From: Candidatus Bathyarchaeota archaeon
Lineage (GTDB): Archaea; Thermoproteota; Bathyarchaeia; Bathyarchaeales; Bathycorpusculaceae
DNA length: 64,000 bases
Assembly (NCBI GenBank): GCA_963826715.1
Contig: CAWGYA010000005.1
Coordinates: 125,239-189,238, forward strand
Reading direction: 5' to 3'
Shown here piece after piece: positions 30,271 through 48,778 of this stretch; the stretch's first letter is position 1; the number at the start of each line of letters is the position of its first letter. The notes below the pieces were generated by a model. The model was not told where the DNA came from and did not search any database. It saw nothing but the letters and a program-made list of their open reading frames with translations. Both the position numbers and the translations under genes were made by a program.

Positions 30271-30319
30271 TTTGTACCTTAAGAGAAATAGAGATTGGTT
30301 TGGAAACTAGAATAGAATT

Positions 30320-30350: not shown

Positions 30351-30471
30351 CCGTTGTCGATATCGCCAATTATGCTTATCCTAAGCAGCTTCTCTCCCTT
30401 TTTAACGATATAGGTTTCTTATCAAGACTGATTGTTTCAGGGAAAATTGGGTCGATAGGAGGTTCTTAAAT

Positions 30472-30726
30472 TTGGAGTTGGTTGACCAGCAGGAGTTTTA
30501 CCTTAAGGGTATTTATCCTGTCGACGTTCTTTCTGAGGTGAAAGATGGTTTAGTTGAGGTTCGGGCGAAAACTACTTTTCTGCATACCAGCGCATATTCA
30601 GAGGGAAAGCGCCAGGTTCGAGTCGGCGTAACTGAAAAGCGTTGGGTCAGGCGAGGGGAGGTTTTGAAGGTACCCTTTCGTCATGTTTGGTCGCATCGAC
30701 GTCGTGTAGCTTCTGGGCATGCTTGA
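30472..30726 (+). CDS. viral hypothetical protein
   Basis: GGAGG upstream of a TTG start. Confidence 0.6.
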   Translation: MELVDQQEFYLKGIYPVDVLSEVKDGLVEVRAKTTFLHTSAYSEGKRQVRVGVTEKRWVRRGEVLKVPFRHVWSHRRRVASGHA

Positions 30727-30746
30727 CTATATGTTAACTGTTATAT
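30723..30746 (+). promoter_or_regulatory. viral promoter-like motif, copy 1
   Basis: TTGACTATATGTTAA-ctg-TTATAT; repeated at 36824 and 44669. Confidence 0.65.
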
Positions 30747-30781
30747 TGGCAACTCTAAAGAAGGGATTGTTTGATGCTGCA

Positions 30782-31057
30782 ATGCTCAAACTGAACTATG
30801 AGGTTCTCGCTTCAAAGATTCATCTCAGTATGCAAGGCCATAGGGACAATAAGGGCAAGTTTGATTGGGCAAGTGCTGTTCTCGACGCTGGCATTATCAG
30901 CGGTATCACTTTTTGTACGGGGTTAGGTACTTTGGCGTCTAGTAGTGCCATTTCTTCTACGAGCTTTTGTGTGCTTCTCAGTGCAGTTGGGGCTGAGTTT
31001 CTGGGGATCTTAGCGACTAAAAGAGGACTCATACAAAAACCCGTTGGGGGCTGTTAA
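30782..31057 (+). CDS. small two-TM viral membrane protein
   Basis: Two hydrophobic segments; ATG 45 nt after the end of the motif core. Confidence 0.6.
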   Translation: MLKLNYEVLASKIHLSMQGHRDNKGKFDWASAVLDAGIISGITFCTGLGTLASSSAISSTSFCVLLSAVGAEFLGILATKRGLIQKPVGGC

Positions 31058-31060
31058 GAA

Positions 31061-31627
31061 TTGGAAGCTAAGACGGCTTTGCGTGTACCTGACTTCATGA
31101 AGCCTATTCTTGAAGACATTAGGCTTTTGCAATCAGACGGAAACAACCCAAACCGGATGACAAACAAGCAAAAAGAGGAACTATGGAAAAGCCTAAAAGA
31201 GTTCGGCTGGACTGACCCCATCCTAACAAACCAAGAGGGCGTTTTCACTGATGGGGAACAACGGGTTAGCGTCTGCATTGCCCATGGAGAATTTTATGCG
31301 CCAGTATATCGTATGAATGACCTCTCTGAGGTACAGCGACGCCGACTCAGATTGATCGCCAACGAATTGAAGGGCAAGCACAACAAAGAACTAGAAGAAG
31401 AGGAATGGCAGCGCATTATCGAGTTAGGACAACGCGAAGAGCTACAATGTTTTTTGGATTCGATTGGGGAAAAGCTGCCTGAAACATTAAGGGATGAACA
31501 CGAAAAAGTTTCCATTATCCCTGAAACTTACGAGTTAATTGTGGAATGCAAAGATGAAGCCGACCAGAAAACCAAGTTAGAGGAGCTACAGGCTAAAAGT
31601 TGGAAGGTTCGAGTTCTAAATCTTTAG
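31061..31627 (+). CDS. ParB/Srx N-terminal domain protein
   Basis: NNPNRM...SLKEFGWTDPIL...DGEQR. Confidence 0.85.
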   Translation: MEAKTALRVPDFMKPILEDIRLLQSDGNNPNRMTNKQKEELWKSLKEFGWTDPILTNQEGVFTDGEQRVSVCIAHGEFYAPVYRMNDLSEVQRRRLRLIANELKGKHNKELEEEEWQRIIELGQREELQCFLDSIGEKLPETLRDEHEKVSIIPETYELIVECKDEADQKTKLEELQAKSWKVRVLNL

Positions 31628-31638
31628 GAGGCTTCAAA

Positions 31639-32388
31639 GTGGATTTTGATTTAACTCACCGGTGGCAAGCTGGCAATTCATTCCGTGAAGAAGCCGTTAA
31701 AGGCACCTATGACCTCAGGGACGTCAAGTTGGAGAAGCATATCTGCGGAAGCCTTCCAATTGAGGGCTTGAATTGGCAGATCGGCGTTATAGTCGGGTCC
31801 AGCGGCAGCGGAAAAACCAGCATAGCCCGCCATCAGTGGCCTGAGGCTTACTTTGCAGATTTAGGGGAGCGCTATAAGCAACCTTGTTTTCTCAACGATT
31901 TCCCATCTGAACTAAGCATCAAAGACATCGAAACTGCCCTGTGTAGCAGCGGATTTAGCGAGCCGCCGTCTTGGCTAAAAAGCTATTCGGTGTTAAGTCA
32001 GGGTCAGAAGATGCGTGTGGATGTTGCCCATGCGCTTTGTCTTCCCCAAAACTTAGTTGTTTTCGATGAGTTCACAAGCACCGTGGATCGCACTGTAGCT
32101 CAAATCGGCAGCTATGCGATTAGCCGTGCCGTTCGAAAGCATCCTGGTAAACAGTTTATCGCCGTAACCTGCCATTTCGACGTGCTGGATTGGCTTGAGC
32201 CTGACTGGGTCTATGATGTAGACGCTAACGTTTTTTGGGATTACACAGGCACATTGCCGGACCAAAAGACAGCTTTAGGAACCCAAGTTAGGATTGTAAA
32301 AAAAAACGACGTCACCCGCCAATCAACTTATCAGTGCATAGGTGCAACCTTGCCCTGTGGCAGGTGTTTAGGGAACATCACTATCTAA
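31639..32388 (+). CDS. soluble ABC-type ATPase (N-terminal half of a probable ATPase-GNAT fusion)
   Basis: GSSGSGKT, LSQGQ, VVFDEFTS, VTCH; GGAGG SD then GTG at 31639. Confidence 0.88.
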   Translation: MDFDLTHRWQAGNSFREEAVKGTYDLRDVKLEKHICGSLPIEGLNWQIGVIVGSSGSGKTSIARHQWPEAYFADLGERYKQPCFLNDFPSELSIKDIETALCSSGFSEPPSWLKSYSVLSQGQKMRVDVAHALCLPQNLVVFDEFTSTVDRTVAQIGSYAISRAVRKHPGKQFIAVTCHFDVLDWLEPDWVYDVDANVFWDYTGTLPDQKTALGTQVRIVKKNDVTRQSTYQCIGATLPCGRCLGNITI

Positions 32389-32789
32389 ACACTAAGGCTC
32401 TTGGGGCTGGCATACGATGTTATGTCGCCAAATATGGGGATAAACCCATTGCGTTTATTGCAGTTGCAAATGTGCACATGAAGGTACAGTATTATCGGGT
32501 CAGTCGGCTTGTTGTCCTTCCAGATTATCAAGGCATCGGTGTAGGCAAGCGGCTATTGAATTTTATGGCGGATCTCTACACAAGGCAGACTAAGCGTCCT
32601 TTCTATATTGTAACAAGCAATCCTCAACTTGCACGTGGCTTGGCGAATTGGAAGGTTAAGCGGTTTGGGCATGGCAGTTCGGGAAGAAATAACACAAGAA
32701 TAAATCGGGGGTTGGTTAAAGCGAACAGTAGAGGGCGCTTGACATTCACATTAGAGTATGTTCCAAATATGGGAGCGCCTAAACAATGA
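32298..32789 (+). CDS. GNAT acetyltransferase in the -1 frame, reached via an A9C slippery site
   Basis: KRRHPPINLSVHR...WQVFREHHYL...RVSRLVVLPDYQGIGVG. Confidence 0.85.
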   Translation, partial: KKKRRHPPINLSVHRCNLALWQVFREHHYLNTKALGAGIRCYVAKYGDKPIAFIAVANVHMKVQYYRVSRLVVLPDYQGIGVGKRLLNFMADLYTRQTKRPFYIVTSNPQLARGLANWKVKRFGHGSSGRNNTRINRGLVKANSRGRLTFTLEYVPNMGAPKQ

Positions 32790-32813
32790 CTTTTATCGCT
32801 TTCTTGGACAATT

Positions 32814-33350
32814 ATGTCCAAAATATGGGGGTACCCCATGGAACCTGAGTTGTTTAAGCGACGTCAAAGAATGCTTAGGCTATTGGCTGTCGGAAACTCG
32901 CTAAGCGCTATTGTCCAGACTCTAAGTGCAGAGTTTCATGTTAGCGAATGGGTAATTTACAAAGACCATAAACGGATGAAAACCTGGGTTCATGCTTTCG
33001 AGCAAGACGAGGTACTGGCATCTATTTTGCGGGCACGGTTGGACTTCTTGAATCGCGAAGCCATGGGTCTTCTAACTGAAGGCGACGACAAGAAGCCGCT
33101 AAGCGTCAAAGATAAGTTTGTGAAAATTGGCGCTCTAAATACTGCTCTCAAAATTACCGTTGAGCAAATTAAGGTCGGGCAGGAACTTGGGCTGATTGAG
33201 AGAAAACCCGAAGTAATTCAATCCGCGGTTAGTTTGGCTATGCCGTTTGAGGCGTCGCCCGAGATTAAGGCTGCCTACATCAAATTCGCTGAATCTCAAA
33301 GGGCTGACAAAGATGCCACAACAAAAGCTGAACCTGACGCCGGGAACTGA
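32814..33350 (+). CDS. terS: probable terminase small subunit
   Basis: N-terminal HTH-like segment; overlaps the TerL start. Confidence 0.65.
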   Translation: MSKIWGYPMEPELFKRRQRMLRLLAVGNSLSAIVQTLSAEFHVSEWVIYKDHKRMKTWVHAFEQDEVLASILRARLDFLNREAMGLLTEGDDKKPLSVKDKFVKIGALNTALKITVEQIKVGQELGLIERKPEVIQSAVSLAMPFEASPEIKAAYIKFAESQRADKDATTKAEPDAGN

Positions 33351-34581
33351 TTTCCTCCGATACTGCCCTCATCCTGCCCAGCTTCCTTTTCACGCAGGCA
33401 AAGGCATCTATAGCCAACGGGCTTGTCTCTGTGGAACGGGTTCGGGAAAGACAAAATGCGGGTTGGCTGAGGATATTCGCTGGGCGCTGGATTATCCTGG
33501 GAGCGTCGGCTTCATTTTTGAGCCATCTTACCCAATGATGAAGCGTATTCTCTTCCCAACATTGGAGAGCAAAGATTTCTTTGGCTGCCGCTATCCTTTT
33601 ACGCAAAATCCCTACGTGGCTGACTTTAACCGTGGGGACATGCGGCTGGATTGGTTTAACGGTTCGCAGTGGTGGTTTGTCTCGCTTGACGATCCAGAAA
33701 AAGCCGAGGGTCCTAACGTTGATTATGCGCATGTCGATGAGGCGCGGCTTGTTCGCCACTTCGACACAGCGTGGCTTACAGTTGTGCGTAGGCTTCGCAA
33801 AAGTGGCCGCTGCATGGTTCCAATTAATCCGGGCATTTGGCTTACGACAACGACCGATTCTCCCGGCAGCCCTTTGTATAATATCACGGAGAACCCTGAG
33901 ACGAATTCGCCTAATATGCGGATTTACCGTTGGAGCATCTTTGAGAACCCAACGTTGCCCAAAGAATTTTTGGCAGAAATTGTACGGACTCACACGGGTG
34001 GCTTAGCTGACCGCTTTATCTATGGCAAATTTGCCACTGTCGCCGCGGGTAGCTTGCCCTTTGACTCTTCAAAGCATATTCGGGAGTTGACTGATAAGGC
34101 GTTGATTAATCGGGTTAGCTTTGGCGTTGACTTCGGTTGGAGTGCACCCAGCGCTATTGTGGTGAACGTTTTTGATCCTGACGGCAGAGCCTACGCAGTG
34201 GATGAATTCTATAAACGTGAAACTACAGATGAAGAGTTAGCGGAGGCAGCCAAAGACTTGCAAGAGACATGGGGTGAGGGAACGTTTTGGTGCGATGCCC
34301 GCTTTCCCCAGTCAATTTTAAAGCTTTGCCGTGCAGGATTAGACGCTAAGCCCTACACTTTCAAACGGGACGATGGGCTGAGGGAACTTGGCAGCCGCCT
34401 GACTCCTGCGAGCGATGGGAAGCCTCGCCAGTTTGTAAGCAAACGCTGTGTCAACCTTATCAGCGAGTTGTTGGAGTATCGGGAAGACATCAAGGAGAAT
34501 GACCATGCGACTGATGCTCTGCGGTATAGTTTGCCGCTGGAGCAAGAAGAGAAGCCGTTTTTGTATGTAGTTAGGCGTTGA
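33313..34581 (+). CDS. terL: terminase large subunit
   Basis: GTGSGKT, AHVDEA, GVDFGWSAP, ENDHATDALRY. Confidence 0.95.
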   Translation: MPQQKLNLTPGTDFLRYCPHPAQLPFHAGKGIYSQRACLCGTGSGKTKCGLAEDIRWALDYPGSVGFIFEPSYPMMKRILFPTLESKDFFGCRYPFTQNPYVADFNRGDMRLDWFNGSQWWFVSLDDPEKAEGPNVDYAHVDEARLVRHFDTAWLTVVRRLRKSGRCMVPINPGIWLTTTTDSPGSPLYNITENPETNSPNMRIYRWSIFENPTLPKEFLAEIVRTHTGGLADRFIYGKFATVAAGSLPFDSSKHIRELTDKALINRVSFGVDFGWSAPSAIVVNVFDPDGRAYAVDEFYKRETTDEELAEAAKDLQETWGEGTFWCDARFPQSILKLCRAGLDAKPYTFKRDDGLRELGSRLTPASDGKPRQFVSKRCVNLISELLEYREDIKENDHATDALRYSLPLEQEEKPFLYVVRR

Positions 34582-34621
34582 CGCCCTCAAATAGCAAGAA
34601 TATAAGCACTTAGCAAGTGAA

Positions 34622-34858
34622 CTATTCTTCTATTTTGAAGAATTCGCCAATTTGAGTGAGATGCAAATTAGCTCTGTCAAGAATAGGTTGTAAGGACTGT
34701 CTTGTACAAGTATCAAAAGAGCCTTTGAGCATTAGAGAGCATACGCCTTTATCATCATTAATAGAGATCGAGTTAAAGTCGATTTTGTATTCGGAAGTAT
34801 TTAGAATTTCTTTGAGAACCACTAACGCCTTATCTCTATTCATAGCAGAGTTCTCCAC
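34622..34858 (-). CDS. small hypothetical cargo protein
   Basis: Co-oriented downstream of the kinase; AT-rich. Confidence 0.55.
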   Translation of the reverse strand: MENSAMNRDKALVVLKEILNTSEYKIDFNSISINDDKGVCSLMLKGSFDTCTRQSLQPILDRANLHLTQIGEFFKIEE

Positions 34859-34947
34859 TAACTTGAGTCACATGATATTGTTTAAAAGGTTTAGGTATTT
34901 GGCAACATAGGGCTTAGTTGATGTGCAAAAATACATCAACAAGGAAG

Positions 34948-36669
34948 TTAATTCTGCGGTAGCTCGATTGTGAACTTTGTGCCCTTGTCTTCTTGGCTTT
35001 CAAAAGTGACGGTTCCACCCATTGCTTCGGTCATACGCTTGACTACTGCTAAGCCGAAGCCTTGCCCCTTTGATTTTGTGGTAAACATTGGCGTAAACAA
35101 TTTAGCTTTCGCCTTCTCTGGTATGCCAACGCCCGTATCTTCCAAAGTTATAATGACATTGTTTTTCTTTTTGTCTTTATAGGCATGTATTGATAGTTTT
35201 CCACCCATGGGCATGGCTTGAATCGCATTATTTACCAAATTAAACAGTATACGATTTAAGAATGAAGAATCAGCTCTGATTCTTCGGACCTCGCTTTCCA
35301 CCTTAACACTTATCTTAACATTCTCTGCCAAAACATTCTTTGACAGCAAATCATCAATTACAAGTTTTGTATCAATATCCTCGAAAGTTGGGGTGAGTGC
35401 TCTGGCAAAGTCTTGCAAATCAGCCACGATCTTGTTAATGTAGTAAACGTTCTTCTCAATTCCCTCCAAACTTTCATGGACATTTTGCTTCGTTTCGCAT
35501 TCGGGCATTGTACTCAGATCAGACTTAAGCAAATATACATCACTGGCAATCGCCTGCAATGGATTACGAATATCATGACCGACCATACCCGCAGTAGCAC
35601 CGATAGCGGCCAAACGCTCAGAATCTTTAAGCTGCTTAGTGCGCTCTTCAACAATCTTCTCTAAATTCGTAGTGTATTTCTGCAATTCTATTTGCGCTTG
35701 CTGTAATACTTCTTCAGCTTTTCTGCGCTCTGTTATATCTTGGACTGTACCAAAACCACCGAGTAATTCGCCTTTTTGGTTGGATTCCAACTCAGCTTTT
35801 TCTCTTACCCATATAACATTTCCATTAACAATAATCCTATGTTCAATATCATAGGGCTTGCCTTTTAGAGCTGCATCCCATTGCTGATTAACATATTCAC
35901 AGTCGTCAGGATGAACCCTTTGCAGGAACTTATCATACGACATTTTAGTGCCTGTTGGAATACCAAAAATGTGGTAAGTCTCATCAGACCAGAATAAATC
36001 TCCTTTAATCGTGACTCTCCAGCTACCAGTTTTAGCTACAGCCTGCGCACGGTTCAAATCATTACGGCTTTCTGTTAGCTGTTCCTTGATTTTAGTCTCC
36101 TCTTCGAGCATTTCTGCCAATTTGAGGTTTGCTAACCCTTTCTTTGATAACATCTTCGTTAGGTCGGTATAAAACGACATCAGGCGCTCTACTTCGGCAC
36201 GCTTCAATCTTGGGACATTTTTGAGGGCGCAAAGATACTCTTTCTTATCAAAGCCGTATTTCTCTGCCTGAGCAAGGAAGCGGTTAATATCCTCTGGCTC
36301 TTCCTCAAAGAAAAATTGCCCTGAGAAAATGTTGCCAACGTGTTTTCCGCCTATAAACAATGGCGTCACTGTATCGATAAGACCGTTTTTACACTTGTAG
36401 ATTCGGTATTCGCCCTCTTTTACTCCCTTTGTTAGTTCAAGGTCGCTTTCTCGGCAGTTGTTGAGTGTTTGAGGGTTTTTGCGATGGAACTTTGCACATA
36501 TATCTTGCCAGCTTGTACCGATTAGTATTTTTCCATCGAGGTCAAGAAGGTAAAAACCTATTCCGGTAATCTTAGTTAAATCTTCCATCATTGCTTGTAG
36601 TGCAGGTAGGTCTATTATCTTGGCGATGTCTTGGGCGTTAACGCCTACGCTGGAAGCTTCCGTAGCCAT
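34948..36669 (-). CDS. PocR-PAS histidine kinase (proviral cargo)
   Basis: WQDICAKFHR...CRESD...YKCKNGL (PocR); WSDETYHIFG, VHPDD (PAS); GHDIRNPL; HATPase boxes. Confidence 0.92.
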   Translation of the reverse strand: MATEASSVGVNAQDIAKIIDLPALQAMMEDLTKITGIGFYLLDLDGKILIGTSWQDICAKFHRKNPQTLNNCRESDLELTKGVKEGEYRIYKCKNGLIDTVTPLFIGGKHVGNIFSGQFFFEEEPEDINRFLAQAEKYGFDKKEYLCALKNVPRLKRAEVERLMSFYTDLTKMLSKKGLANLKLAEMLEEETKIKEQLTESRNDLNRAQAVAKTGSWRVTIKGDLFWSDETYHIFGIPTGTKMSYDKFLQRVHPDDCEYVNQQWDAALKGKPYDIEHRIIVNGNVIWVREKAELESNQKGELLGGFGTVQDITERRKAEEVLQQAQIELQKYTTNLEKIVEERTKQLKDSERLAAIGATAGMVGHDIRNPLQAIASDVYLLKSDLSTMPECETKQNVHESLEGIEKNVYYINKIVADLQDFARALTPTFEDIDTKLVIDDLLSKNVLAENVKISVKVESEVRRIRADSSFLNRILFNLVNNAIQAMPMGGKLSIHAYKDKKKNNVIITLEDTGVGIPEKAKAKLFTPMFTTKSKGQGFGLAVVKRMTEAMGGTVTFESQEDKGTKFTIELPQN

Positions 36670-36823
36670 ACAAGTGACCCTTTAAAAAAAGTACGGTAAC
36701 TTCGTTCATATAAAAACATTTGTTGTAGCAAACTAGCAACCACAAACAACCCCACCAAGCACATGCGTTCCAGAAAAGCTTTCATCAGCCTCCAACTCTG
36801 ATTTCTCGTTTTCAGCTTCAGCG

Positions 36824-36848
36824 TTGACTATATGTTAATTCTTATAAA
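36824..36848 (+). promoter_or_regulatory. viral promoter-like motif, copy 2
   Basis: TTGACTATATGTTAA-ttc-TTATAAA. Confidence 0.65.
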
Positions 36849-36977
36849 CTAACTTTGGTGATAGGGCTATTTTGTGTAGGCAGCTCTGGGGAAAGCGGTA
36901 AGCTTTAACCTCTCCCCGGGGCTGCGGGCTTGCTGTTTTCCCCATGGGTTGACCGAGACTTCAGGTCTGTTGCTAAA

Positions 36978-37838
36978 TTGAGTGAAGGTTCGGGCTGTGG
37001 GAAATGCAAGCGAGTTCATGAGCAGATAGCTCAGATTCTGCCTTTTCGAGTTCTGGAAGCCGCTGAAGGTAAGCCATTGCGGATTGCAGGCGTCGCTATG
37101 ACTGCAGGCATGTCCCGTAATCATAACGTTTACACTTCTGAAGAGTTGGAGGCTTTTGCTCCAAAACTTGTTGGGGCACCCATCTATCTTGAGCATGTCG
37201 CCGTTGAATCAGCCATCGGAAAGGTTACTAACTGCGTTTTTGATGCCCCATCCAAGAGCTTACGGTACGAAGCGGAGATTTACGACGCAGCTATGGCTGA
37301 GAAGATCCGTCAGGGTTTGATTCAGCATGTGAGTGTTGGGGCAGACTACGATGCACTTGATACAGCCAACGTGCCGCATGGGTTGCATAACGCGGAGATG
37401 TCGCTTGTTGCAGTGCCCGGTATTCCTGAAACCAACATCCAGGTTCTAGAAGCTTTACAGAAGGGGGTTAGGGGTTTGGAAGAAAAGGAGATTGAAAAGG
37501 TCGCTGAGAAAGTCGCTGCCAAGATCGGCGAGAAAAATTCTCTTGAAATTGAGGGTCTAAAAACAAAGCTTTTGGAAGCGGAGGGTAAGTTGGTGGCTGC
37601 TGAGGGTAAACTTGCCGAAGCCAACAGGACAGTTGAGCAGTTAAAGCAGCTTGTACCCGGTGTAGACTTGCTGAAGAATCCGCCCAAACTGATGCCTGTT
37701 TCTGAGGCTGTCAATATGGTTAAGGAAGCAATGCCTGCGTCGATGATTCAGCGTTCATGGGGACTTGGCCCTCAACGCATGTGTCAGGACCTGCAGCGTG
37801 TCATCCAGAAACTTGAAACTAGGGCTGGTGGCAAGTAA
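36978..37838 (+). CDS. prohead protease with C-terminal scaffold-like coiled coil (start uncertain, 36930-36978)
   Basis: IAGVAMTAGMSRN, IYLEH, VSVG, EMSLVAVPG; EGKL repeats. Confidence 0.85.
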   Translation: MSEGSGCGKCKRVHEQIAQILPFRVLEAAEGKPLRIAGVAMTAGMSRNHNVYTSEELEAFAPKLVGAPIYLEHVAVESAIGKVTNCVFDAPSKSLRYEAEIYDAAMAEKIRQGLIQHVSVGADYDALDTANVPHGLHNAEMSLVAVPGIPETNIQVLEALQKGVRGLEEKEIEKVAEKVAAKIGEKNSLEIEGLKTKLLEAEGKLVAAEGKLAEANRTVEQLKQLVPGVDLLKNPPKLMPVSEAVNMVKEAMPASMIQRSWGLGPQRMCQDLQRVIQKLETRAGGK

Positions 37839-38050
37839 TGGCTGAGAAATCTGCCGAGGGAAAACTCCACGAAGTCGATGATGTCGAAGCTGATGCGGTT
37901 ATTGAGTTTGCAAGTAGGGCTATTCCTCATAACGAGATGCTTGGTCGTGTTATCCGCAACATGTACAAGCGCATTCAGGAGTTAGAAGCCCAAATTAAGG
38001 ACCTACAAGCGAAGCAAAAAAAGGCCACCGCTAAAGTTGGAGGTCCATAG
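37838..38050 (+). CDS. small coiled-coil viral protein
   Basis: Translationally coupled (TAATG). Confidence 0.65.
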   Translation: MAEKSAEGKLHEVDDVEADAVIEFASRAIPHNEMLGRVIRNMYKRIQELEAQIKDLQAKQKKATAKVGGP

Positions 38051-38128
38051 TTTTGCTCACTTTTGTGGGGCTAGTAGCGCCAGGACGAACTGGTGTGAAC
38101 GCAGAAAGAATAAGGAGATTGATTTTAG

Positions 38129-38554
38129 ATGACTGATTTAACTGGAAAATCTTGGATGGCTGTAGGAGAAACTGACGATCCAAACGCTGTTATAGAATCT
38201 TTTGAAGCAGGTGCAGGCATCACTAAAGGCTCACCGGTTTACTTAAGTGCAGACGATAAGGTTTCCGCCAGCCCAGGCGGAGACAACGCAGTAGGAATTG
38301 CTATGAAAACCGTTTTGACTGGTCAGCGGTGCCCAGTGCTAACCCATGGGAGAGTCAAAGTGACAGCTGGCGGCGCTATAGCAAGAGGTACAGCGGTCTG
38401 CAGTGCTGCTGCTGGCAAAGTGATTCAACTTGTCGATCAAGCTGTTGACGAGGGCGGCGCTGCGAAATACACCATTTTCTTCAACCGCAGACTTGGCTAT
38501 GCACTAGAGACTACTACGCAGGACACCGACCTCCTGTTCATTGAGGTGGGATAA
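38129..38554 (+). CDS. capsid decoration/cement protein (DUF2190-like)
   Basis: AGAGITKGSPV...AVGIA...GRVKVTAGGAIARG; immediately upstream of the MCP. Confidence 0.75.
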   Translation: MTDLTGKSWMAVGETDDPNAVIESFEAGAGITKGSPVYLSADDKVSASPGGDNAVGIAMKTVLTGQRCPVLTHGRVKVTAGGAIARGTAVCSAAAGKVIQLVDQAVDEGGAAKYTIFFNRRLGYALETTTQDTDLLFIEVG

Positions 38555-39507
38555 TGAAGCCCAAACTCTACGAGTCATTGATGCAGAAAGACGCTGGATT
38601 CAAAGAAGTCATGGAAAAACTCAAACTGAAAACCGACCATCCATTCCTGAAACGATATTCCGCTTTGGGAGTGAAGGAAGGCTTCTTCAGCGACATGTCA
38701 GGCGCTCTTGGCAGAATGCATGATACGATGGTTGATGCTGCATGGCCTGAACTGATTGGCCGTAGCATAATCAACGTAATGCCAACCAACGAAGCCATGG
38801 AACGCTTCCCAATCGATGCAGGCGCAACCGCTTACGAATACGCTGAAGGCACCATTACCCGGCTCTCAGGCAAAAAAGCCTCAACTGTTGACATCAACGC
38901 AAACATTCTGGCAGACTCTTCAGACGAGTGGACAAGGGAATACCTTGAAGACGCATCTTGGAACGTCATGGACCGTGCAACACAGAACATCGGCAACGCC
39001 CTAGGAGTCAAAGAGACCGAGAAGATTCTGGCGCTATACACTGCTGTCTTAGCTGCTGACCTGGCTACCGGTGCAGACTTGGCAGGCGGCGGTACTGTGA
39101 TGAGCTGGACAAAGCTGCTTAGCTTGTGGCATGCTGTTAAGTCTGAGAAGCGAAGAGCAACTGTTATCGCCCTAAACGATATGCAGGTTGCACAGCTCCT
39201 CAACGATAGCACCTTCACAAACGCACAGTCTCTACCAGCAGCACAAACCGACCTCGAAGCAGGCGTTGTCAGTGGCGCACTGGGCATGAAGATTGTTTCA
39301 AGCCCACTTGTCACCAACGGTGTTGCATTCGCCATCGATACACGTGTTGCCTCCGCGATGCTTCTACGCCGAGACGTAACTGTCGAGGACTGGGAAGATG
39401 TCAAGAACGGCAAATACGATGTCAGAGCCACAACTCGCTTTGGCTTAGGCGTCCTGGATTCCAAAGGTATTGCAAGAATGACAAACATCAAGACGACAAT
39501 CACTTAA
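38554..39507 (+). CDS. major capsid protein, HK97 fold
   Basis: Position and size; EWTREYLED, GALGMKIVSSPLV, RFGLGVLDSKGIA. Confidence 0.88.
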   Translation: MKPKLYESLMQKDAGFKEVMEKLKLKTDHPFLKRYSALGVKEGFFSDMSGALGRMHDTMVDAAWPELIGRSIINVMPTNEAMERFPIDAGATAYEYAEGTITRLSGKKASTVDINANILADSSDEWTREYLEDASWNVMDRATQNIGNALGVKETEKILALYTAVLAADLATGADLAGGGTVMSWTKLLSLWHAVKSEKRRATVIALNDMQVAQLLNDSTFTNAQSLPAAQTDLEAGVVSGALGMKIVSSPLVTNGVAFAIDTRVASAMLLRRDVTVEDWEDVKNGKYDVRATTRFGLGVLDSKGIARMTNIKTTIT

Positions 39508-39518
39508 ACGGCGTATTG

Positions 39519-39538
39519 CCTGTTTTTCCCTTTTTTTG
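39519..39538 (+). terminator. oligo-T terminator-like tract after the MCP gene
   Basis: TGTTTTTCCCTTTTTTT. Confidence 0.4.
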
Positions 39539-39565
39539 GGTATCAAATCATTGGGGGTCTAAGCA

Positions 39566-40813
39566 TTGAGTAACGTTTACAGAAAGATCCGTGAGGTCCT
39601 CTCCTATGCGCCTGTTTCAGGCGTGGCAAAGCCGAATGGTAGAGTTTTCTTTGATACTTCCTGCATTCCCCTAATTGATGTTATGAAGCTCTATGACCGT
39701 GACCCAACCTGCAAGGCAAGCGTGGATCTGTTGGCTGCTTCTACAGTTGGCATGGGCTTCTACACTACAGTTGACGAAACCTATGATAAAGCGAAGGAAG
39801 CCAAAGCCGCTGTGGATAATTTCTGCGAAGACATCAACTTGGACGGCTTGCTAAACGATATGGCAAAGCCGCTGATTGGCTGCGGGAACGATTTTTGGCT
39901 TAAATTAACTCCTGACAAACTCACCGAAACCTTGCGCATGCCCATAGATGCCGTGCAGCGTATTGGGCTTAGCAGTGTGCCCGACCTAAAGCTTCCTTAC
40001 AAGGTTACAGGTTATCAACTTAGGAGCATCTATCGAGGTAATAGCAACCAAGACGGGGAACTAAAGCCAGAAGCGGTTATTCACTGGCACCTAGACGGCG
40101 ACATTCCCTCTGGCTACGGCGTTGGCTTGCTACAGGTGCTTTTGCACACATTAACCGTTGATTCGGATAAACGCCCGGCTGTTGCTTGGATGAAAGCCAA
40201 AATCGAGCGCATCATGCCAAAGATTTTCGAGAAATACGCGGGACCCGACGTTTTGGCAATGCTGGAGGGCGTCGATGAACAGACGGTGAAGTCTTTTGAG
40301 CAGGCCATCAAGAACCGTGATGAAGAGGGCGCTTGGCTATTCTACAACAAAAAAATCGATTTAAAGCCGGTTACGATTGACCCACGAGCGCAGGGCTTTG
40401 TTTACTACATCGACCATATCATTAACCAGTTCTATTTGGGCTTGGAAACGCCTCTGCCGAGGTTGTTTAGCACTCCAGGCTTTACTGAAGCATCGGCTAG
40501 GGCAGCGTTGGATTTGCAGGATATGCTCATAAAACCCGTCCAACGCTATATCAAACGCCAAGTGGAACGGGAAATCTTCTTACCCATTGTTACTCAAGCT
40601 GGGCTTGACCCTGTTAAGGCTAAGGCGAGGTTGAATTATGGTAGCCCCGAAACGCCAGAGTTGAGTTCAGCCGATCTCATCAAGGCTGCTGAAGCTGGGT
40701 TGATTCGCCAAGAGGAGTTCCGTAAGAACGCCGTGAAATTTGGTTGGGAACTTTGGGAAGAGAAGTCAAACGTGCGACATGATAGCAGTAAACAGCTTGT
40801 CCAAAGAGGATAA
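39566..40813 (+). CDS. portal protein
   Basis: 415 aa; GCGNDF, EAVIHW...GYGVGLL, LGLETP, IKPVQRYIKRQVE; head-module context. Confidence 0.8.
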   Translation: MSNVYRKIREVLSYAPVSGVAKPNGRVFFDTSCIPLIDVMKLYDRDPTCKASVDLLAASTVGMGFYTTVDETYDKAKEAKAAVDNFCEDINLDGLLNDMAKPLIGCGNDFWLKLTPDKLTETLRMPIDAVQRIGLSSVPDLKLPYKVTGYQLRSIYRGNSNQDGELKPEAVIHWHLDGDIPSGYGVGLLQVLLHTLTVDSDKRPAVAWMKAKIERIMPKIFEKYAGPDVLAMLEGVDEQTVKSFEQAIKNRDEEGAWLFYNKKIDLKPVTIDPRAQGFVYYIDHIINQFYLGLETPLPRLFSTPGFTEASARAALDLQDMLIKPVQRYIKRQVEREIFLPIVTQAGLDPVKAKARLNYGSPETPELSSADLIKAAEAGLIRQEEFRKNAVKFGWELWEEKSNVRHDSSKQLVQRG

Positions 40814-40908
40814 AAAACGCTCTCTTTTCGCTCGTTCAAGTAGCGTCTTGCGAATAAACCTGATTTCACGTCGAAACGCTTTTACCTTTAAAAATAGATT
40901 TTATTAAT

Positions 40909-41265
40909 GTGACAAATTCTGACAGTATTATGGTTTGTGTAATCGATAATGTGTTAAGATCCCTTCCTGAAAAGGATCACTTCTATATAGAGCTCCAAAA
41001 ATTGGGGCTTACCCTTGAAGATATACCCGAAAACCTGTACAGTTTCCATGAAGTCCTAAAAAACACGTTTGGAAAACATCATTACTCCGTTGAAAATCAA
41101 ATAATCAAATTTCTGCATGAAAATGTTAAACAGGGAATCTATGAAGAGAAAGACGCCTCTAAGATAGCCATCCAACTAATCGATGTATTTACTAAAGAAC
41201 ACAAAAAAGAGATAGAAGCAACCAAGGATGCGTTGAGTCAAAACACTTACTTGCGAATGCACTAA
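40909..41265 (+). CDS. DUF3227/NitrOD5-like small protein (cargo)
   Basis: IDNVLRSL...EDIPENLYSFHEVLKNTFG...ENQIIKFL pattern; upstream of the kinase. Confidence 0.55.
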   Translation: MTNSDSIMVCVIDNVLRSLPEKDHFYIELQKLGLTLEDIPENLYSFHEVLKNTFGKHHYSVENQIIKFLHENVKQGIYEEKDASKIAIQLIDVFTKEHKKEIEATKDALSQNTYLRMH

Positions 41266-41309
41266 GTTAATAAAAGAAGAATCGCTTTTTTAATTATTAA
41301 TTTGGGTGA

Positions 41310-44300
41310 ATTGTTACGCTAGACAAAACAGAAGCGCCTTCAAAAGAAGTTCTTGACCAAAAGGATGACGAATTCCCAATCGTTGGTATCGGCGCTTCTG
41401 CAGGCGGATTAGAGCCTATTAGGGAACTGCTGGGGCATCTTCCAAGTGATTTAGGTTTATCTTTTGTAATTATTCAACATTTAGCGGCTGGACAAGAAAG
41501 CCTACTCCCCGAGATTCTTGCAAGGTCGACGAAAATGCAAGTTGTTCAAGTTACAGATAACATGAAAGTTCTAGAAAACCACGTCTATGTTATCCCACCC
41601 GGAACAACGATGACCTTAGAAAACGACTACCTAAAGCTTGTGCCAAAAGTCGACTCGCCGAGACCGATTAACGCATTCTTTGCTTCTTTAGCGCTGGAAA
41701 GAAAAACACAGGCAATCGGAATAGTACTTTCTGGGCTAGGTAACGACGGAACTGAAGGATTAAAAGCAATTAAAGCCGAAGGCGGAATAACCTTTGCACA
41801 AGAACCAAAAACCGCTCAATATACAGATATGCCCCGCAACGCCATTGACTCACAAGTCGTAGATTTTATTCTCCAACCTGAGAGAATGGCAAAAGAATTG
41901 TCGATTTTAGCCAAACACCCTAACCTCATTCATGCCAAAGCAAAGGAACTTGGGATTCAACTATCCAAAGAAGAAACTGATCTAAGAAAAATACTCATGA
42001 TAGTTAAAACCGCTTTCGGTGTAGATTTTACCCATTACAAACAAACTACTATTAACCGACGAATAACCCGACGTTTGGTTATCAACAAATCAGAAAACTT
42101 GCACCAATATGGGAATGTTTTGCGTTCTAACAAAAAAGAGCTGCAGGCATTATTTGATGATCTGCTGATAGGTGTTACAAGCTTTTTTAGAGAGCCCAAA
42201 ACGTTTGAAATCCTTAAACAAAAAGTATTCCCCCAGATAGTACAAGACAGATCACCAAGCACTGAAAAGCTGCGTTTTTGGGTTCCAGCATGCTCAACTG
42301 GTGAAGAAGCATATTCTCTTGCAATCGCTCTTCAAGAATTTCTTCAAGATAACGATATAGTCAATATTAGCGTGCAGATATTTGGAACCGATGCAAACGA
42401 AAAAAGCATCGAGAAGGCACGCCAAGGAACTTATCCCAAAGCTATAGAAGAGAACGTTTCTGAAGTTAGACTTAAGCAGTTTTTCACCAAGTTTGATGGA
42501 CGATATCAGATAGCAAAGCCCATACGTGATATGTGTGTTTTTGCAAAACACGACATAACCACTGACCCGCCATTCTCTAATTTGGACCTTATTGTTTGCC
42601 GCAATTTGCTAATCTACTTTGACCCCTACCTCCAAGAAAGAGTCCTGCCTGTGCTACACTACGGGCTAAAACCTGACGGTTTCCTAGTTTTAGGTGAATC
42701 GGAAAGCGTCGGCAAGTTTCAATACCTCTTTGAACCGCTCAGCACTAAAAGCATCATTTTTAAGAAGAAACGAGCCCAGCCACAAGCAGCCATAGAGACC
42801 GGAACTTTTGTACCATATACTGATAAAAAAACCTATAATCCGCCTCAAAAAACAGATACAATGACTTCATTAAAGCAAGAAATCGATAATGAGTTAATCG
42901 AGCAGTATGTTCCTGCAACATTGCTAACTAACAGCAATTTAGATATTCTCTTTTTCCGTGGTCAAGTTAACCCATACCTGATACATGAATCTGGCGCCGC
43001 AAGCTTCAACGTCAATAAAATCGTTAAAAAAGAATTAAGACCACAAGTTCAAATGGCCATTCTTAGAGCAAAAAAAGAAAACAAAGCAGCTACTGAAAGA
43101 GTTACATTCGAAGAAAAAGAAATAAACAGAATAGTTGAAATCCAGGCTAAACCGTTTAACGCGCCAGAGTTCGACGAGACTTTCTTTTTTATAAGCTTTA
43201 AAGAATCATCAGTTCCTGCGCTTAAAACTCCCATCAATGAGGAAGGGTCGAAACCCCTGGGCGGGGATTTACGAGAAAAACAAATTCGTGAGCTTACTGA
43301 AGATTTAATCTCTTCTAAGCAGACCTTACAATCTATTATTGAGTCGCATGAAGCAACAACAGAAGAGTTACGCTCAACAATAGAAGAAGCTCAATCAAGT
43401 AACGAAGCCCTTCAGAGTACTAATGAGGAATTGGAAACAGCTAAAGAGGAGTTGCAATCAAGCAATGAAGAGTTACAAACCCTCAACGAGGAATTAAAAA
43501 ATCGCAACGAATTACTAACAACAACAAACGATGACTTGGCAAATTTGATAAAAAATGTTGATACCACAGTTGTTATTGTAGATAATAGTTTTATAATAAG
43601 GCGGGCAACCGCGACGGCTTGGGGTGTGCTTAACATTCAGCCATCGGATATTGGGCATGCTATTTTTGCAACAAATATTGGAAACTTCATCAAGGACTTA
43701 GAAACCAAGCTAAATAACGTGACTACAAACTTTACGCAGGTAGTGCAAGAAGTAGCAGGGCAAAATGGGTTGTACTATGAGCTTCGAATCCGTCCATATT
43801 TGACTTCTAGCAAAAAAATTGCTGGAGCAGTCTTAACCTTCGTTAATATTACGGAAAGAAGGCTTCTTGAAATACAGCAAAAAGGTCACACTGAGAAGCT
43901 TGAGGCTCACGTTAGAACCCAAGACGCCAAATTGATTGATTCCGAACGCATGGCAGCTATTGGCCAAACCGCTGGAATGGTTGGACATGACCTCCGCAAT
44001 CCTTTGCAAACATTAGTCGGCGAATTATACTTGGCAGAAAAGACTTTAGAGGAATTACCGGATAGTGAGCAAAAAGGCAGCCTACATGAAAGCATAGCAG
44101 CCATTACTGAACAGACCCAATACATGGATAAGATAGTTAGCGATTTACAAACTTTCGTCAAGCCAGTTGAGACACATAAAGAAAAAGTCCTACTAAAGCA
44201 ACTAATCGCAGGCGTTTTAGCTACCATAGACATACCAAATATCATTAAAATTAATGTTGAAGTCAGCGAAGATTTAGTGATCGATGCCGACCCTCAACTA

Positions 44301-44612
44301 CTCAAAAGAGTGCTCATAAATCTTGTAACCAATGCGATTCAAGCTATGCCAAATGGAGGACATATAACCATCGAAGCAGAACGTATCAATAACGGACAAG
44401 TGAAGATTGTTGTTGGGGATACAGGTATAGGCATCGCAGATGAGACTAAACCAAAAATTTTTACGCCACTATTCACAACCAAGTCACGTGGTCAAGGCTT
44501 CGGTTTAGCGGTATGTAAGAGGGTAATTGAAGCCCAAGGCGGGACGATAGAATTTGAGAGCGAAGTCGGCAAAGGAACAAAATTCATAATACAACTGCCA
44601 ATCACCCAATAA
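41310..44612 (+). CDS. CheB-CheR-coiled coil-PAS-histidine kinase fusion (proviral cargo); non-canonical start likely
   Basis: Frame open from 41310 and includes FPIVGIGASAGG upstream of the first ATG (41535); CheR, H-box and ATPase motifs intact. Confidence 0.9.
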   Translation: MVTLDKTEAPSKEVLDQKDDEFPIVGIGASAGGLEPIRELLGHLPSDLGLSFVIIQHLAAGQESLLPEILARSTKMQVVQVTDNMKVLENHVYVIPPGTTMTLENDYLKLVPKVDSPRPINAFFASLALERKTQAIGIVLSGLGNDGTEGLKAIKAEGGITFAQEPKTAQYTDMPRNAIDSQVVDFILQPERMAKELSILAKHPNLIHAKAKELGIQLSKEETDLRKILMIVKTAFGVDFTHYKQTTINRRITRRLVINKSENLHQYGNVLRSNKKELQALFDDLLIGVTSFFREPKTFEILKQKVFPQIVQDRSPSTEKLRFWVPACSTGEEAYSLAIALQEFLQDNDIVNISVQIFGTDANEKSIEKARQGTYPKAIEENVSEVRLKQFFTKFDGRYQIAKPIRDMCVFAKHDITTDPPFSNLDLIVCRNLLIYFDPYLQERVLPVLHYGLKPDGFLVLGESESVGKFQYLFEPLSTKSIIFKKKRAQPQAAIETGTFVPYTDKKTYNPPQKTDTMTSLKQEIDNELIEQYVPATLLTNSNLDILFFRGQVNPYLIHESGAASFNVNKIVKKELRPQVQMAILRAKKENKAATERVTFEEKEINRIVEIQAKPFNAPEFDETFFFISFKESSVPALKTPINEEGSKPLGGDLREKQIRELTEDLISSKQTLQSIIESHEATTEELRSTIEEAQSSNEALQSTNEELETAKEELQSSNEELQTLNEELKNRNELLTTTNDDLANLIKNVDTTVVIVDNSFIIRRATATAWGVLNIQPSDIGHAIFATNIGNFIKDLETKLNNVTTNFTQVVQEVAGQNGLYYELRIRPYLTSSKKIAGAVLTFVNITERRLLEIQQKGHTEKLEAHVRTQDAKLIDSERMAAIGQTAGMVGHDLRNPLQTLVGELYLAEKTLEELPDSEQKGSLHESIAAITEQTQYMDKIVSDLQTFVKPVETHKEKVLLKQLIAGVLATIDIPNIIKINVEVSEDLVIDADPQLLKRVLINLVTNAIQAMPNGGHITIEAERINNGQVKIVVGDTGIGIADETKPKIFTPLFTTKSRGQGFGLAVCKRVIEAQGGTIEFESEVGKGTKFIIQLPITQ

Positions 44613-44668
44613 TTTTGGTTTAGCGTTTAAACGGTTTTATAGTTCTATCGTCAGGGCATCCGTACGTT

Positions 44669-44692
44669 TTGCTTATATGTTAAGTCTTTTAT
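44669..44692 (+). promoter_or_regulatory. viral promoter-like motif, copy 3
   Basis: TTGCTTATATGTTAA-gtc-TTTTAT; TTG start 45 nt after the core. Confidence 0.6.
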
Positions 44693-44727
44693 GCGGTTTA
44701 TTGCGTAACCTCAAACTTAAGGTTTAG

Positions 44728-45087
44728 TTGGCTTTGGCTGCGGTTACGGTTGAGGACGTTTGGGATACTTTGAATGTTGGCGATTCGGATATGTCTGAGG
44801 CTAAAGTTCTCAAGATGATTAAGCGAGCCGAAGTGACTTTAGCGCTTGAACTCAACGTAGAAATTGACTATGCAAACTGTTCGGATGCCAAAAAGGAAGC
44901 TATAACGGTTTTGGCTGCGATGTATGCGCTGTGCTTCTTGACTGGCGGGTCAACTGTTGGGTTGAACTTTAGCGTAGGCGACCTTAATGCCAGCCAGCCT
45001 TCGAAGCTGCCGAGCATGGATGTGCTGCAAGGCGAATTTTCCCGTCTGCTAGACAAGCTAAAAACGCCCTATATCGGGGTGGCTTAG
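44728..45087 (+). CDS. head-tail adaptor (HK97 gp6/SPP1 gp15-like)
   Basis: VTVEDV..L N-terminus; size; first gene of the neck/tail block. Confidence 0.65.
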   Translation: MALAAVTVEDVWDTLNVGDSDMSEAKVLKMIKRAEVTLALELNVEIDYANCSDAKKEAITVLAAMYALCFLTGGSTVGLNFSVGDLNASQPSKLPSMDVLQGEFSRLLDKLKTPYIGVA

Positions 45088-45089
45088 CC

Positions 45090-47707: not shown

Positions 47708-47713
47708 TGGAGT

Positions 47714-48592: not shown

Positions 48593-48601
48593 GGTGAGAA
48601 A

Positions 48602-48778
48602 ATGGAAGAAGTGAAAGTGGAAGACTGGCTTAAAATATGGGAGAAAATAGGCGTTCGTCTCCTTCAGCTTCCGAAGTGGATGCAACAAATCGTACTTGAA
48701 GACATCAACACAGCCATCAGTAACAGACTTGCAGTAATGGAGGTAATCAACAATGTACACAGAAAAAATACGGATTAA
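48602..48778 (+). CDS. small viral protein (58 aa), absent from the ORF track
   Basis: SD GAGGTGA; MEEVKVEDWLKIWEKIG... Confidence 0.65.
   Translation: MEEVKVEDWLKIWEKIGVRLLQLPKWMQQIVLEDINTAISNRLAVMEVINNVHRKNTD

What the first reader, a model, noticed from the sequence alone, without database searches (positions are those of the whole stretch)
30723..44692. One promoter-like motif heads each of the three morphogenesis blocks
Seen: TTGACTATATGTTAA-ctg-TTATAT (30723), TTGACTATATGTTAA-ttc-TTATAA (36824) and TTGCTTATATGTTAA-gtc-TTTTAT (44669) precede the packaging, head and neck/tail blocks. In copies 1 and 3 the start codon lies exactly 45 nt after the core (30782, 44728). Inference: an activator site plus TATA box defining a late regulon. 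Separate promoters would explain how cargo can sit between blocks without polarity, so the kinase slots look like built-in insertion sites.
Basis: partly seen in the sequence, partly recalled or inferred. Interest (0 to 1): 0.7.

Follow-up and report, generated by a model that had tools for sequence, protein, structure and literature searches.

The report
Shared late promoter in archaeal provirus
A 20-base promoter-like element stands in front of each of the three virion-building gene blocks of a tailed provirus in a Bathyarchaeia archaeon, stays fixed in related proviruses while the cargo genes just upstream of it change, and so probably switches the late genes on together.

Summary
The three copies are real, on the gene strand and non-coding. 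The 20-base pattern YTAYATGTTAA-N3-TTWTAW matches exactly 3 times in the window (4 matches at up to 2 mismatches, 0.36 expected by chance). The 2.64 Mb host genome has only two more strong copies, both in proviral remnants. In 120 genomes of the genus it occurs 45 times in 18 genomes, against 7 for a control pattern.

Related proviruses keep it at the same three junctions. Information content is 1.7-2.0 bits per base in the motif and 0.3-0.4 just upstream, where homology stops and variable cargo begins.

The host is an archaeon. A promoter model learned from 1147 host upstream regions aligns its AA-N3-TTWWA core with the motif's 3' half, so GTTAA is BRE-like and TTWTAW is the TATA box. The virus-specific part is YTAYATGTT.

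Best reading: a late core promoter with a conserved extension read by an unidentified common factor. The cargo-slot idea is supported: kinases and other genes swap at these sites. No transcript data exist, so start sites and activator versus repressor remain untested. This is a new member of a known kind, of moderate interest.

The parts
30727..30746 (+). BRE-like AA at 30736-30737, TATA-like TTATAT at 30741-30746. Heads the packaging block.
36828..36847 (+). TATA-like TTATAA at 36842-36847. Heads the head block.
44673..44692 (+). TATA-like TTTTAT at 44687-44692. Heads the neck/tail block.
30782..34581 (+). Block 1: small membrane protein, ParB-like nuclease, ABC-type ATPase-like protein, GNAT, putative small terminase (by position only; no family match), large terminase.
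34582..36827 (.). Cargo slot 2. Holds a PocR-PAS histidine kinase (34948-36669, minus strand) and a 78-aa ORF (34622-34858, minus strand). G+C 0.406.
36848..36977 (+). Conserved leader of the head block, with a long hairpin at about 36879-36954. The protease probably starts at TTG 36978.
36930..40813 (+). Block 2: prohead protease, 70-aa ORF, cement/decoration protein, HK97-type major capsid protein, portal.
40814..44672 (.). Cargo slot 3. Holds a 118-aa ORF (40909-41265) and a CheB-CheR-PAS histidine kinase (listed ORF 41535-44612; frame open from 41310). G+C 0.397.
44728..52556 (+). Block 3: neck/connector, tail tube, HK97 gp10-like protein, and further tail proteins.
30472..30726 (+). It is highly conserved (67-91% identity) and present in all 8 relatives that have site 1. 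Its function is unknown.

Best explanation
The element is the core promoter of the late (virion morphogenesis) genes of a family of tailed proviruses of Bathyarchaeia. Its 3' half, GTTAA-N3-TTWTAW, is a host-type BRE plus TATA box. It would recruit the host's TBP, TFB and RNA polymerase, with initiation expected about 22-27 nt downstream. That predicts 5' leaders of about 10-20 nt at sites 1 and 3 and about 105 nt, strongly folded, at site 2.

Its 5' half, YTAYATGTT, is not a host feature. It replaces the A-rich distal BRE of host promoters and is nearly invariant at all three sites in all relatives. It is most simply a common recognition element for one trans-acting factor that couples the three blocks into one regulon. 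That factor could be a virus-encoded protein or one of the host's four TFB paralogues.

Because each block carries its own promoter, DNA can be inserted between blocks without cutting off downstream late genes. The three junctions have accordingly become cargo slots.

Shown: sequence, specificity, conservation, position, likeness to host promoters, and cargo turnover. Inferred: promoter activity, start sites, the existence and sign of the factor, and late timing.
For: - Three exact copies against 0.36 expected matches. Only 5 strong copies in the genome, all proviral.
- Genus-wide, 45 matches in 18 of 120 genomes against 7 for the reversed control pattern, and 102 genomes have none.
- The host is archaeal: 2 TBP and 4 TFB genes.
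- Orthologous proviruses keep a copy upstream of the block-1 gene in 8 of 8 relatives that have that gene, and upstream of the neck gene in 5 of 5 relatives where it was detected. G389 adds a sixth site-3 copy. Site 2 is present by the way the loci were chosen.
- Footprint over 29 instances: 0.30-0.39 bit per base upstream, 1.74-1.98 in the motif, 0.80-1.13 downstream. Each site keeps its own N3 and TATA variant, so the shared part is held by selection and not by recent copying.
- A model learned by EM from 1147 host upstream regions, proviral areas excluded, is AA-N3-TTWWA. Its best placement in each viral site puts AA on the AA of GTTAA and TTWWA on TTWTA. Scores fall at the 41st, 74th and 78th percentile of host upstream regions.
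- Host tRNA upstream regions show GTAAR plus TATA. The conserved tRNA-Ile upstream element TTCTTATAAAC is identical to site 2.
- Distant relatives keep a TATA box at the same place before the conserved leader, but with CACAGCAAA instead of the core.
- A sister clade uses a different shared motif (GATATTATCGTGTTTWGGCTCTCAAG). It stands before the protease (10 hits in 9 loci) and before the neck gene (3 loci), and does not occur in this host genome.
- The site-3 19-mer stands before unrelated sequence in 3 of 7 IMG/VR contigs, as a portable promoter would.
Against: - There is no transcript evidence of any kind, so promoter activity and start sites are inferred.
- The host promoter model is weak (low information). 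The viral sites score only mid to upper range in it, so they are not unusually strong by that measure.
- No factor has been identified. The provirus and its relatives encode no TFB or TBP.
- The regulatory modules differ among relatives that share the motif.
- Conservation of YTAYATGTT could reflect a DNA-shape or TFB contact requirement without any dedicated factor.
- Copies of site 2 persist in decayed remnants with no late gene behind them.
Confidence: 0.6

Rival explanations
1. The promoters are intrinsically active, and the conserved YTAYATGTT, which overlaps the BRE, is an operator. A lysogeny repressor binds it at all three late promoters and blocks TFB/TBP until induction.
For: The BRE-proximal AA and the TATA box match the host model and resemble tRNA promoters, so basal activity is plausible. 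A provirus must then silence its late genes. The conserved extension abuts and overlaps the BRE, a typical place for archaeal repressors (general knowledge, recalled). This provirus does have an operator-like cluster elsewhere, CTACATGTAG x3, sharing CTAYATGT with the motif.
Against: The palindrome cluster and its wHTH gene were found in only one (G405b) of the six relatives searched for them, while the late motif is in all of them. The late motif matches the palindrome at only 7 of 10 positions. No repressor conserved across all the relatives is evident.
Confidence: 0.15
2. These are plain constitutive promoters with no dedicated factor. The three copies descend from one ancestral promoter, and the whole 20-mer is kept because every base contributes to TBP/TFB binding or DNA bending.
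For: The 3' 13 bases are host-like. The host tRNA-Ile upstream region even has TTTATGGTAATTCTTATAAAC, including a TATG before the BRE. No factor was found.
Against: Host promoters show no conservation at the positions of YTAYAT and prefer A, not T, at the two positions before AA. ATGTTAA-N3-TTWTAW occurs 6 times in the genome, and 5 of those appear to be the five proviral copies. Each site has kept its own N3 and TATA variant while the 5' part stayed the same across proviruses whose capsid proteins are down to 57% identical. Unregulated late genes in a provirus would be costly (inference).
Confidence: 0.2
3. The copies are not primarily promoters. They are module-boundary sequences: short conserved stretches at which related viruses recombine and exchange blocks and cargo.
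For: Homology between relatives starts exactly at the motif and ends at the stop codon of the preceding block. Mosaics exist: G405b has two site-2 modules flanking a terminase 3' fragment, and L093 carries motif A and motif B in tandem.
Against: Twenty bases are short for homologous recombination. No recombinase family was found among the cargo ORFs of the slots. The element has the orientation, composition and spacing of a host-type promoter. A promoter would give the same boundary pattern simply by being the first constrained base of each block.
Confidence: 0.05

Closest known systems
Intergenic repeats of halovirus HF2 and other Haloferacalesviruses, which carry promoters (PMC8707807; I read the abstract and outline only)
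   Same: Both are archaeal tailed viruses in which a short repeated intergenic sequence contains AT-rich promoter elements. In both, the repeat and its genomic positions are conserved among related viruses.
   Different: HF2 has two repeat classes of 58 and 29 bp, and all nine repeats tested in a reporter showed promoter activity. Here there is one 20-bp element in three copies, each at the head of a morphogenesis block and next to a cargo slot. There is no experimental test, and the host is an uncultivated Bathyarchaeia archaeon.
Archaeal BRE/TATA core promoters with a factor site directly upstream of the BRE, such as TFB-RF1 of Pyrococcus or Ptr2 of Methanocaldococcus (recalled, not looked up)
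   Same: A conserved element abuts the BRE on its upstream side, and the distal BRE departs from the host's A-rich consensus.
   Different: No cognate protein is known, no dyad or repeat symmetry is conserved, and activation is not shown.
Late promoters of bacteriophages that define a late regulon, such as T4 late promoters, lambda PR' with Q, and P2 Ogr-dependent promoters (recalled)
   Same: One shared promoter type coordinates packaging, head and tail genes. The head-block copy is followed by a conserved, strongly folded leader.
   Different: The transcription machinery is archaeal. There are three separate promoters instead of one long late operon. No late activator or antiterminator has been identified.
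Phage morons, meaning cargo genes inserted between conserved late genes (recalled)
   Same: Genes of host-like composition and variable content sit at fixed junctions between conserved structural modules.
   Different: Here the junctions lie immediately upstream of the block promoters, and the recurrent cargo is sensor histidine kinases with CheB/CheR domains.

Membership tests
Archaeal BRE/TATA core promoter | AT-rich TATA box with an A-rich BRE a fixed few bases upstream, as in the host's own promoters | tested here: met
   The host model learned from 1147 upstream regions is AA-N3-TTWWA. Its best placement in all three sites is in register with GTTAA-N3-TTWTAW, scoring at the 41st to 78th percentile of host upstream regions. 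tRNA upstream regions agree.
Archaeal BRE/TATA core promoter | Lies upstream of a gene, on its strand, in non-coding DNA, at a promoter-like distance | tested here: met
   All three copies are on the + strand. The TATA centre is 38.5 nt before ATG 30782 and TTG 44728, inside the broad host peak of TATA-like words at about -28 to -67. The sequence between motif and start codon carries indels in relatives.
Archaeal BRE/TATA core promoter | Transcription starts about 22-27 nt downstream of the TATA box | not testable with these tools
   No RNA run was listed. The eight metagenome contigs holding the leader show no contig ends near the predicted start.
Activator-dependent archaeal promoter (upstream activating site) | Conserved sequence directly upstream of the BRE that is not part of the general promoter | tested here: met
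   In YTAYATGTT, T2, A3, A5, T6, T8 and T9 are identical in 28-29 of 29 instances, and G7 in 28 of 29. Host promoters have no signal at those positions.
   The TTGA part varies freely among relatives.
Activator-dependent archaeal promoter (upstream activating site) | A cognate DNA-binding activator encoded with the sites | tested here: inconclusive
   A wHTH 58702 homologue was detected in only one (G405b) of the six relatives searched for it. The conserved 84-aa protein gives a modest model (pLDDT 71.9) with no significant structural match. No TFB or TBP is encoded in the proviruses.
Bacterial sigma-70 promoter (-35 TTGACT / -10) | A bacterial host, and 16-18 bp between the hexamers | tested here: not met
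   The host encodes TBP and TFB. The spacer from TTGACT to TTATAT is 12 bp. TTGA is not conserved.
Moron-like cargo slots between late modules | Variable gene content at fixed junctions, while the flanking modules are conserved | tested here: met
   Slot lengths are 0-1.7 kb, 1.1-5.5 kb and 2.8-7.5 kb across the relatives. Of 65 cargo ORFs from 7 relatives, 38 have no Pfam family. Sensor-kinase, CheB/CheR or receiver domains occur in 4 of the 7. Other cargo includes RelA/SpoT, PLD nuclease plus helicase, ParA and ArsR.
Moron-like cargo slots between late modules | Cargo composition differs from that of the virus | tested here: met
   Slot G+C is 0.406 and 0.397, block G+C is 0.479-0.502, and the host contigs are 0.396-0.42.
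HF2-type promoter-bearing intergenic repeats | Reporter-proven promoter activity of the repeat | not testable with these tools
   This needs an experiment. Only the conservation of sequence and position was tested and met.

The most novel reading that the evidence does not exclude
YTAYATGTT is the recognition element of a dedicated late-transcription factor of these archaeal tailed viruses. That factor would be either one of the host's four TFB paralogues co-opted as a 'late sigma', or an unannotated viral protein such as the ultra-conserved 84-aa product of 30472-30726. The conserved 75-nt hairpin leader behind the head-block copy would then be a second checkpoint, working by attenuation or antitermination, or as a small RNA. 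The virus would have a three-promoter chassis that has evolved to accept plug-in sensory kinases without disturbing late expression.
Probability: 0.2. Interest if true: 0.75.

Novelty: new member of a known kind. Interest (0 to 1): 0.45.

Why it matters
Bathyarchaeia are abundant and almost entirely uncultivated, and nothing is known about how their viruses are transcribed. Word searches found 'promoter' 0 times in each of the three Bathyarchaeia virus or provirus papers I checked (PMC10848311, PMC11697101, PMC11705971).

This element provides three things:
- A first concrete cis-regulatory signature for one of their virus families. It can be used to mark late-module starts and cargo boundaries in metagenomic contigs.
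- A defined 20-mer for pull-down or EMSA experiments to find the factor.
- An explanation of how these proviruses carry host-like sensor kinases and defence genes inside the structural region.

The biology itself, a shared viral late promoter with moron-like slots, is of a familiar kind.

Tried and rejected
- RNA evidence: no RNA holder was listed for window 36700-45200.
- A scan of metagenome contigs for the leader gave 8 loci. None had a contig end near the predicted start.
- Rfam gave no family for the leader or anywhere else in 30300-45200. The only hit was a 13-bit tRNA-like 3' end at 30332-30348.
- Earlier findings of this scan: nothing to show.
- The bacterial -35/-10 reading is rejected. 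The host is archaeal, the spacer is 12 bp, and TTGA is not conserved.
- The dyad TTGAC/GTTAA is rejected.
- The inner TATAT as the TATA box is rejected. In 7 of 9 site-1 copies it reads TACAT, and distant relatives lose it but keep the downstream TATA.
- wHTH 58702 as the binder of the late motif is disfavoured.
- A provirus-encoded TFB was looked for and none was found.
- The 84-aa protein: no Pfam or PHROG family. AF2 gave pLDDT 71.9 and Foldseek found nothing at E <= 0.001; the SH3-like rows are weak.
- Oligo-T terminators just upstream of the copies are present in some relatives only (T5-T6 in 3 of 8 site-3 copies, by eye), so I did not use them.
- Covariation for the leader fold is weak: 1 of 20 predicted pairs has a compensatory change.


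Full report
**What is there**

The window is C5:125239-189238 of a 2.64 Mb, 8-contig genome. The genome encodes two TBP and four TFB genes, so the host is an archaeon. Public contigs that carry related capsid genes are titled Bathyarchaeia or Bathyarchaeota MAGs, apart from one MAG labelled Methanocella and one labelled 'uncultured archaeon'.

From about 30.35 kb to the contig end lies a tailed provirus.
- Its left end carries a tRNA-like 3' fragment at about 30322-30350 on the minus strand.
- An 84-aa ORF follows (30472-30726).
- Block 1 is a membrane protein, a ParB-like nuclease, an ABC-type ATPase-like protein, a GNAT, a putative small terminase and the large terminase (30782-34581).
- A PocR-PAS histidine kinase lies on the opposite strand.
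- Block 2 is protease, cement protein, HK97-type capsid protein and portal (to 40813).
- A 118-aa ORF and a CheB-CheR-PAS histidine kinase follow.
- Block 3 is the neck and tail (44728-52556).
- A helicase and an S8 peptidase lie on the minus strand.
- A replication/regulation module and an integrase at 62702-63958 close the element.

**Is it more than chance?**

The 15-mer alone, at up to 3 mismatches, is not significant: 4 matches against 2.90 expected. The whole element is. The pattern YTAYATGTTAANNNTTWTAW has 3 exact matches and 4 at up to 2 mismatches, against 0.36 expected, and no shuffle of 100 reaches 4.

In the whole genome a weight-matrix scan returns five hits of 32.8-37.0 bits, then a gap to 22.0. 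The two extra hits, C7:190407 and C2:413177(-), lie in remnants of related proviruses, of which this genome holds several.

In 120 genomes of the genus the exact pattern occurs 45 times in 18 genomes. The same pattern read backwards occurs 7 times, and 102 genomes have no copy. The motif travels with the virus.

**Comparative anatomy**

I used the site-2 region as a probe in 301 genomes of the family (31 with a match). I fetched about 28 kb around ten such places, plus one found by the 15-mer.

Every relative that has the block-1 gene carries a copy 43-51 nt before its ATG (8 of 8). Every relative in which the neck-gene homologue was detected carries one before it (5 of 5), and G389 has a copy before a diverged gene. 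Site 2 is present by construction, in 10 of 11 exactly and once with a 2-nt deletion.

I stacked the 29 instances (9, 12 and 8 for the three sites) on the motif. Mean information is 0.30-0.39 bit per base in the 50 nt upstream, 1.74-1.98 in the 20-mer and 0.80-1.13 in the 50 nt downstream.

The consensus is Y-T-A-Y-A-T-G-T-T-A-A-N-T-S-T-T-W-T-A-W. Each site keeps its own variant of the last nine bases across all the proviruses: YNG-TTATAT at site 1, TTC-TTATAA at site 2 and GTC-TTTTAT at site 3. Some of these proviruses have capsid proteins only 57% identical. The shared part is therefore held by selection and not by recent copying between sites.

**Which part is the promoter?**

Three lines of evidence point to GTTAA-N3-TTWTAW as BRE plus TATA box.
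- At site 1 the inner 'TATAT' reads TACAT in 7 of 9 proviruses, while TTATAT is invariant.
- More distant relatives keep the site-2 leader and a TATA box at the same distance from it. Upstream they have CACAGCAAA instead of CTATATGTTAA.
- An EM model learned from 1147 upstream regions of host ORFs, proviral areas excluded, converges on AA-N3-TTWWA. Its best placement in each viral site is exactly in register. The scores are 4.7, 6.7 and 7.0 bits, at the 41st, 74th and 78th percentile of host upstream regions.

Host tRNA upstream regions show GTAAR followed by a TATA box. The tRNA-Ile upstream element TTCTTATAAAC, conserved in 30 genomes of the genus, is identical to site 2.

What the host model does not have is YTAYATGTT. 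Host promoters prefer A at the two positions before AA, where the virus has TT, and they carry no signal further upstream. ATGTTAA-N3-TTWTAW occurs 6 times in the genome, and 5 of those appear to be the five proviral copies.

**Cargo slots**

Homology between relatives begins at the motif and, on the other side, ends at the stop codon of the preceding block. Between these two points the content differs from provirus to provirus.
- Slot 1 is empty here and in G092, and 0.85-1.7 kb elsewhere.
- Slot 2 is 1.1-5.5 kb.
- Slot 3 is 2.8-7.5 kb.

Of 65 cargo ORFs from 7 relatives, 38 have no Pfam family. Sensor-kinase, CheB/CheR or receiver domains occur in 4 of the 7 relatives, in slot 2 or slot 3 and on either strand. 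Other cargo includes a RelA/SpoT-like protein, a PLD nuclease with a DEAD/MZB helicase, a ParA and an ArsR-type regulator. In the window the slots have G+C 0.406 and 0.397 against 0.479-0.502 for the blocks, which is like the host's 0.40-0.42.

In a sister clade (capsid 60-68% identical) three loci have the portal gene 3-33 nt from the neck gene, and four have 236-380 nt. None of these seven shows either motif there. Three sister-clade loci with 1.3-2.9 kb of cargo there (L093, L094, L096) carry a different shared element before the neck gene, GATATTATCGTGTTTWGGCTCTCAAG. The same element precedes the protease (10 hits in 9 loci) and does not occur in this host genome. Three loci with inserts (L095, L104, L109) show neither motif within 170 nt.

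So the design 'one shared element per block, with cargo upstream of it' recurs with a second, unrelated sequence.

**What cannot be said**

No RNA run was listed, so promoter activity, start sites and timing are inferred.

Whether the conserved 5' part binds an activator, a repressor or a particular TFB paralogue is open. The wHTH gene at 58702 has its own operator-like cluster: the perfect palindrome CTACATGTAG at 58438, 58470 and 58602, the only three copies in the whole genome. That gene and one palindrome recur only in G405b, while the five other relatives searched keep the late motif without them. The proviruses encode no TFB. The strongly conserved 84-aa protein at the left end is present in all relatives that have site 1, but it has no recognisable fold match.

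**The leader of the head block**

Behind site 2 lie about 130 nt that are conserved at the DNA level in 31 of 301 genomes searched. The stretch folds into a long hairpin: -50.5 kcal/mol, z = -3.37, and 0 of 200 shuffles fold as well. Covariation is weak, with 1 of 20 predicted pairs showing a compensatory change, and there is no Rfam family. The promoter-plus-hairpin unit also survives in remnants that have no protease gene behind it. It may be an attenuator, a small RNA or simply a recent relic.

**Comparison and verdict**

The nearest described case is the promoter-bearing intergenic repeats of halovirus HF2, which are conserved in sequence and position within that virus genus (PMC8707807; I read the abstract and outline). 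Three papers on Bathyarchaeia viruses or proviruses do not contain the word 'promoter' (PMC10848311, PMC11697101, PMC11705971; word searches). [quoted passage not shown]

The finding is real and specific. It is best read as a virus-specific late core promoter with an extension that awaits its factor. It is a new member of a known kind, and the cargo-slot inference is supported.

Noticed in passing
window 58438-58447, 58470-58479, 58602-58611: The perfect 10-bp palindrome CTACATGTAG occurs three times within 174 bp, upstream of the wHTH gene at 58702. These are the only three copies in the 2.64 Mb genome. One copy recurs before the wHTH homologue of relative G405b. It looks like the operator cluster of that regulator, and it shares CTAYATGT with the late motif.
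   Followed up: partly
window 36866-36985: The conserved leader behind site 2 has a roughly 75-nt hairpin (MFE -50.5 kcal/mol, z -3.37) whose 3' arm contains a T4-T5 run (TTTT in the window, TTTTT in several relatives). It has no Rfam family, and the promoter-plus-hairpin unit persists in remnants without a protease gene (C7:190391-190521 and C2:413101-413198). It could be an attenuator or a small RNA.
   Followed up: partly
L089-L106 (for example L094:4810 and L094:11018): A sister clade of these proviruses uses a different shared element, GATATTATCGTGTTTWGGCTCTCAAG, preceded by a similar half-repeat. It stands before the protease and, where cargo is present, before the neck gene. L093 carries both motif types in tandem.
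   Followed up: partly
G000 C2:352700-352717 (L130), upstream of tRNA-Ile: The host tRNA-Ile upstream region reads ATGGTAATTCTTATAAAC, matching viral site 2 (ATGTTAATTCTTATAAAC) at 17 of 18 bases. TTCTTATAAAC is conserved in 30 genomes of the genus. This could be capture or convergence on a strong promoter.
   Followed up: partly
window 41310-41535: The CheB-CheR-PAS kinase frame is open from 41310 and encodes the N-terminal part of the CheB domain, but it has no ATG, GTG or TTG before 41535. Either the start is unusual or the start codon has been lost.
   Followed up: no
window 30322-30350 (minus strand) and the contig end at 64000: A tRNA 3'-end fragment marks the left attachment site. The integrase (62702-63958) abuts the contig end, so the intact tRNA and the right end are not in the assembly.
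   Followed up: no
window 30472-30726; G000 C8:1258915-1259154: An 84-aa basic protein is 67-91% identical across 81 database homologues, far more conserved than its neighbouring genes. A second copy sits beside tRNA-Lys on contig C8 with no other viral gene nearby.
   Followed up: partly
G000 contigs C7 (about 63-103, 126-156 and 154-193 kb), C5:76-82 kb, C2:410-417 kb, C4, C8: The genome holds several further related proviruses or remnants. One tail block on C7 is 85-87% identical in DNA to 44785-50870, yet its neck-gene upstream region lacks the motif.
   Followed up: partly
window 52592-57491 (minus strand): An 847-aa DEAD/ResIII helicase and a 741-aa S8 peptidase lie between the tail block and the early region, with G+C 0.415. 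This is probably a further cargo or defence island.
   Followed up: no
L077/L078 (G405:C18): This relative has two site-2 modules flanking a terminase 3' fragment, and its kinase cargo in both slots is broken into several ORFs. It is a decaying mosaic provirus.
   Followed up: no
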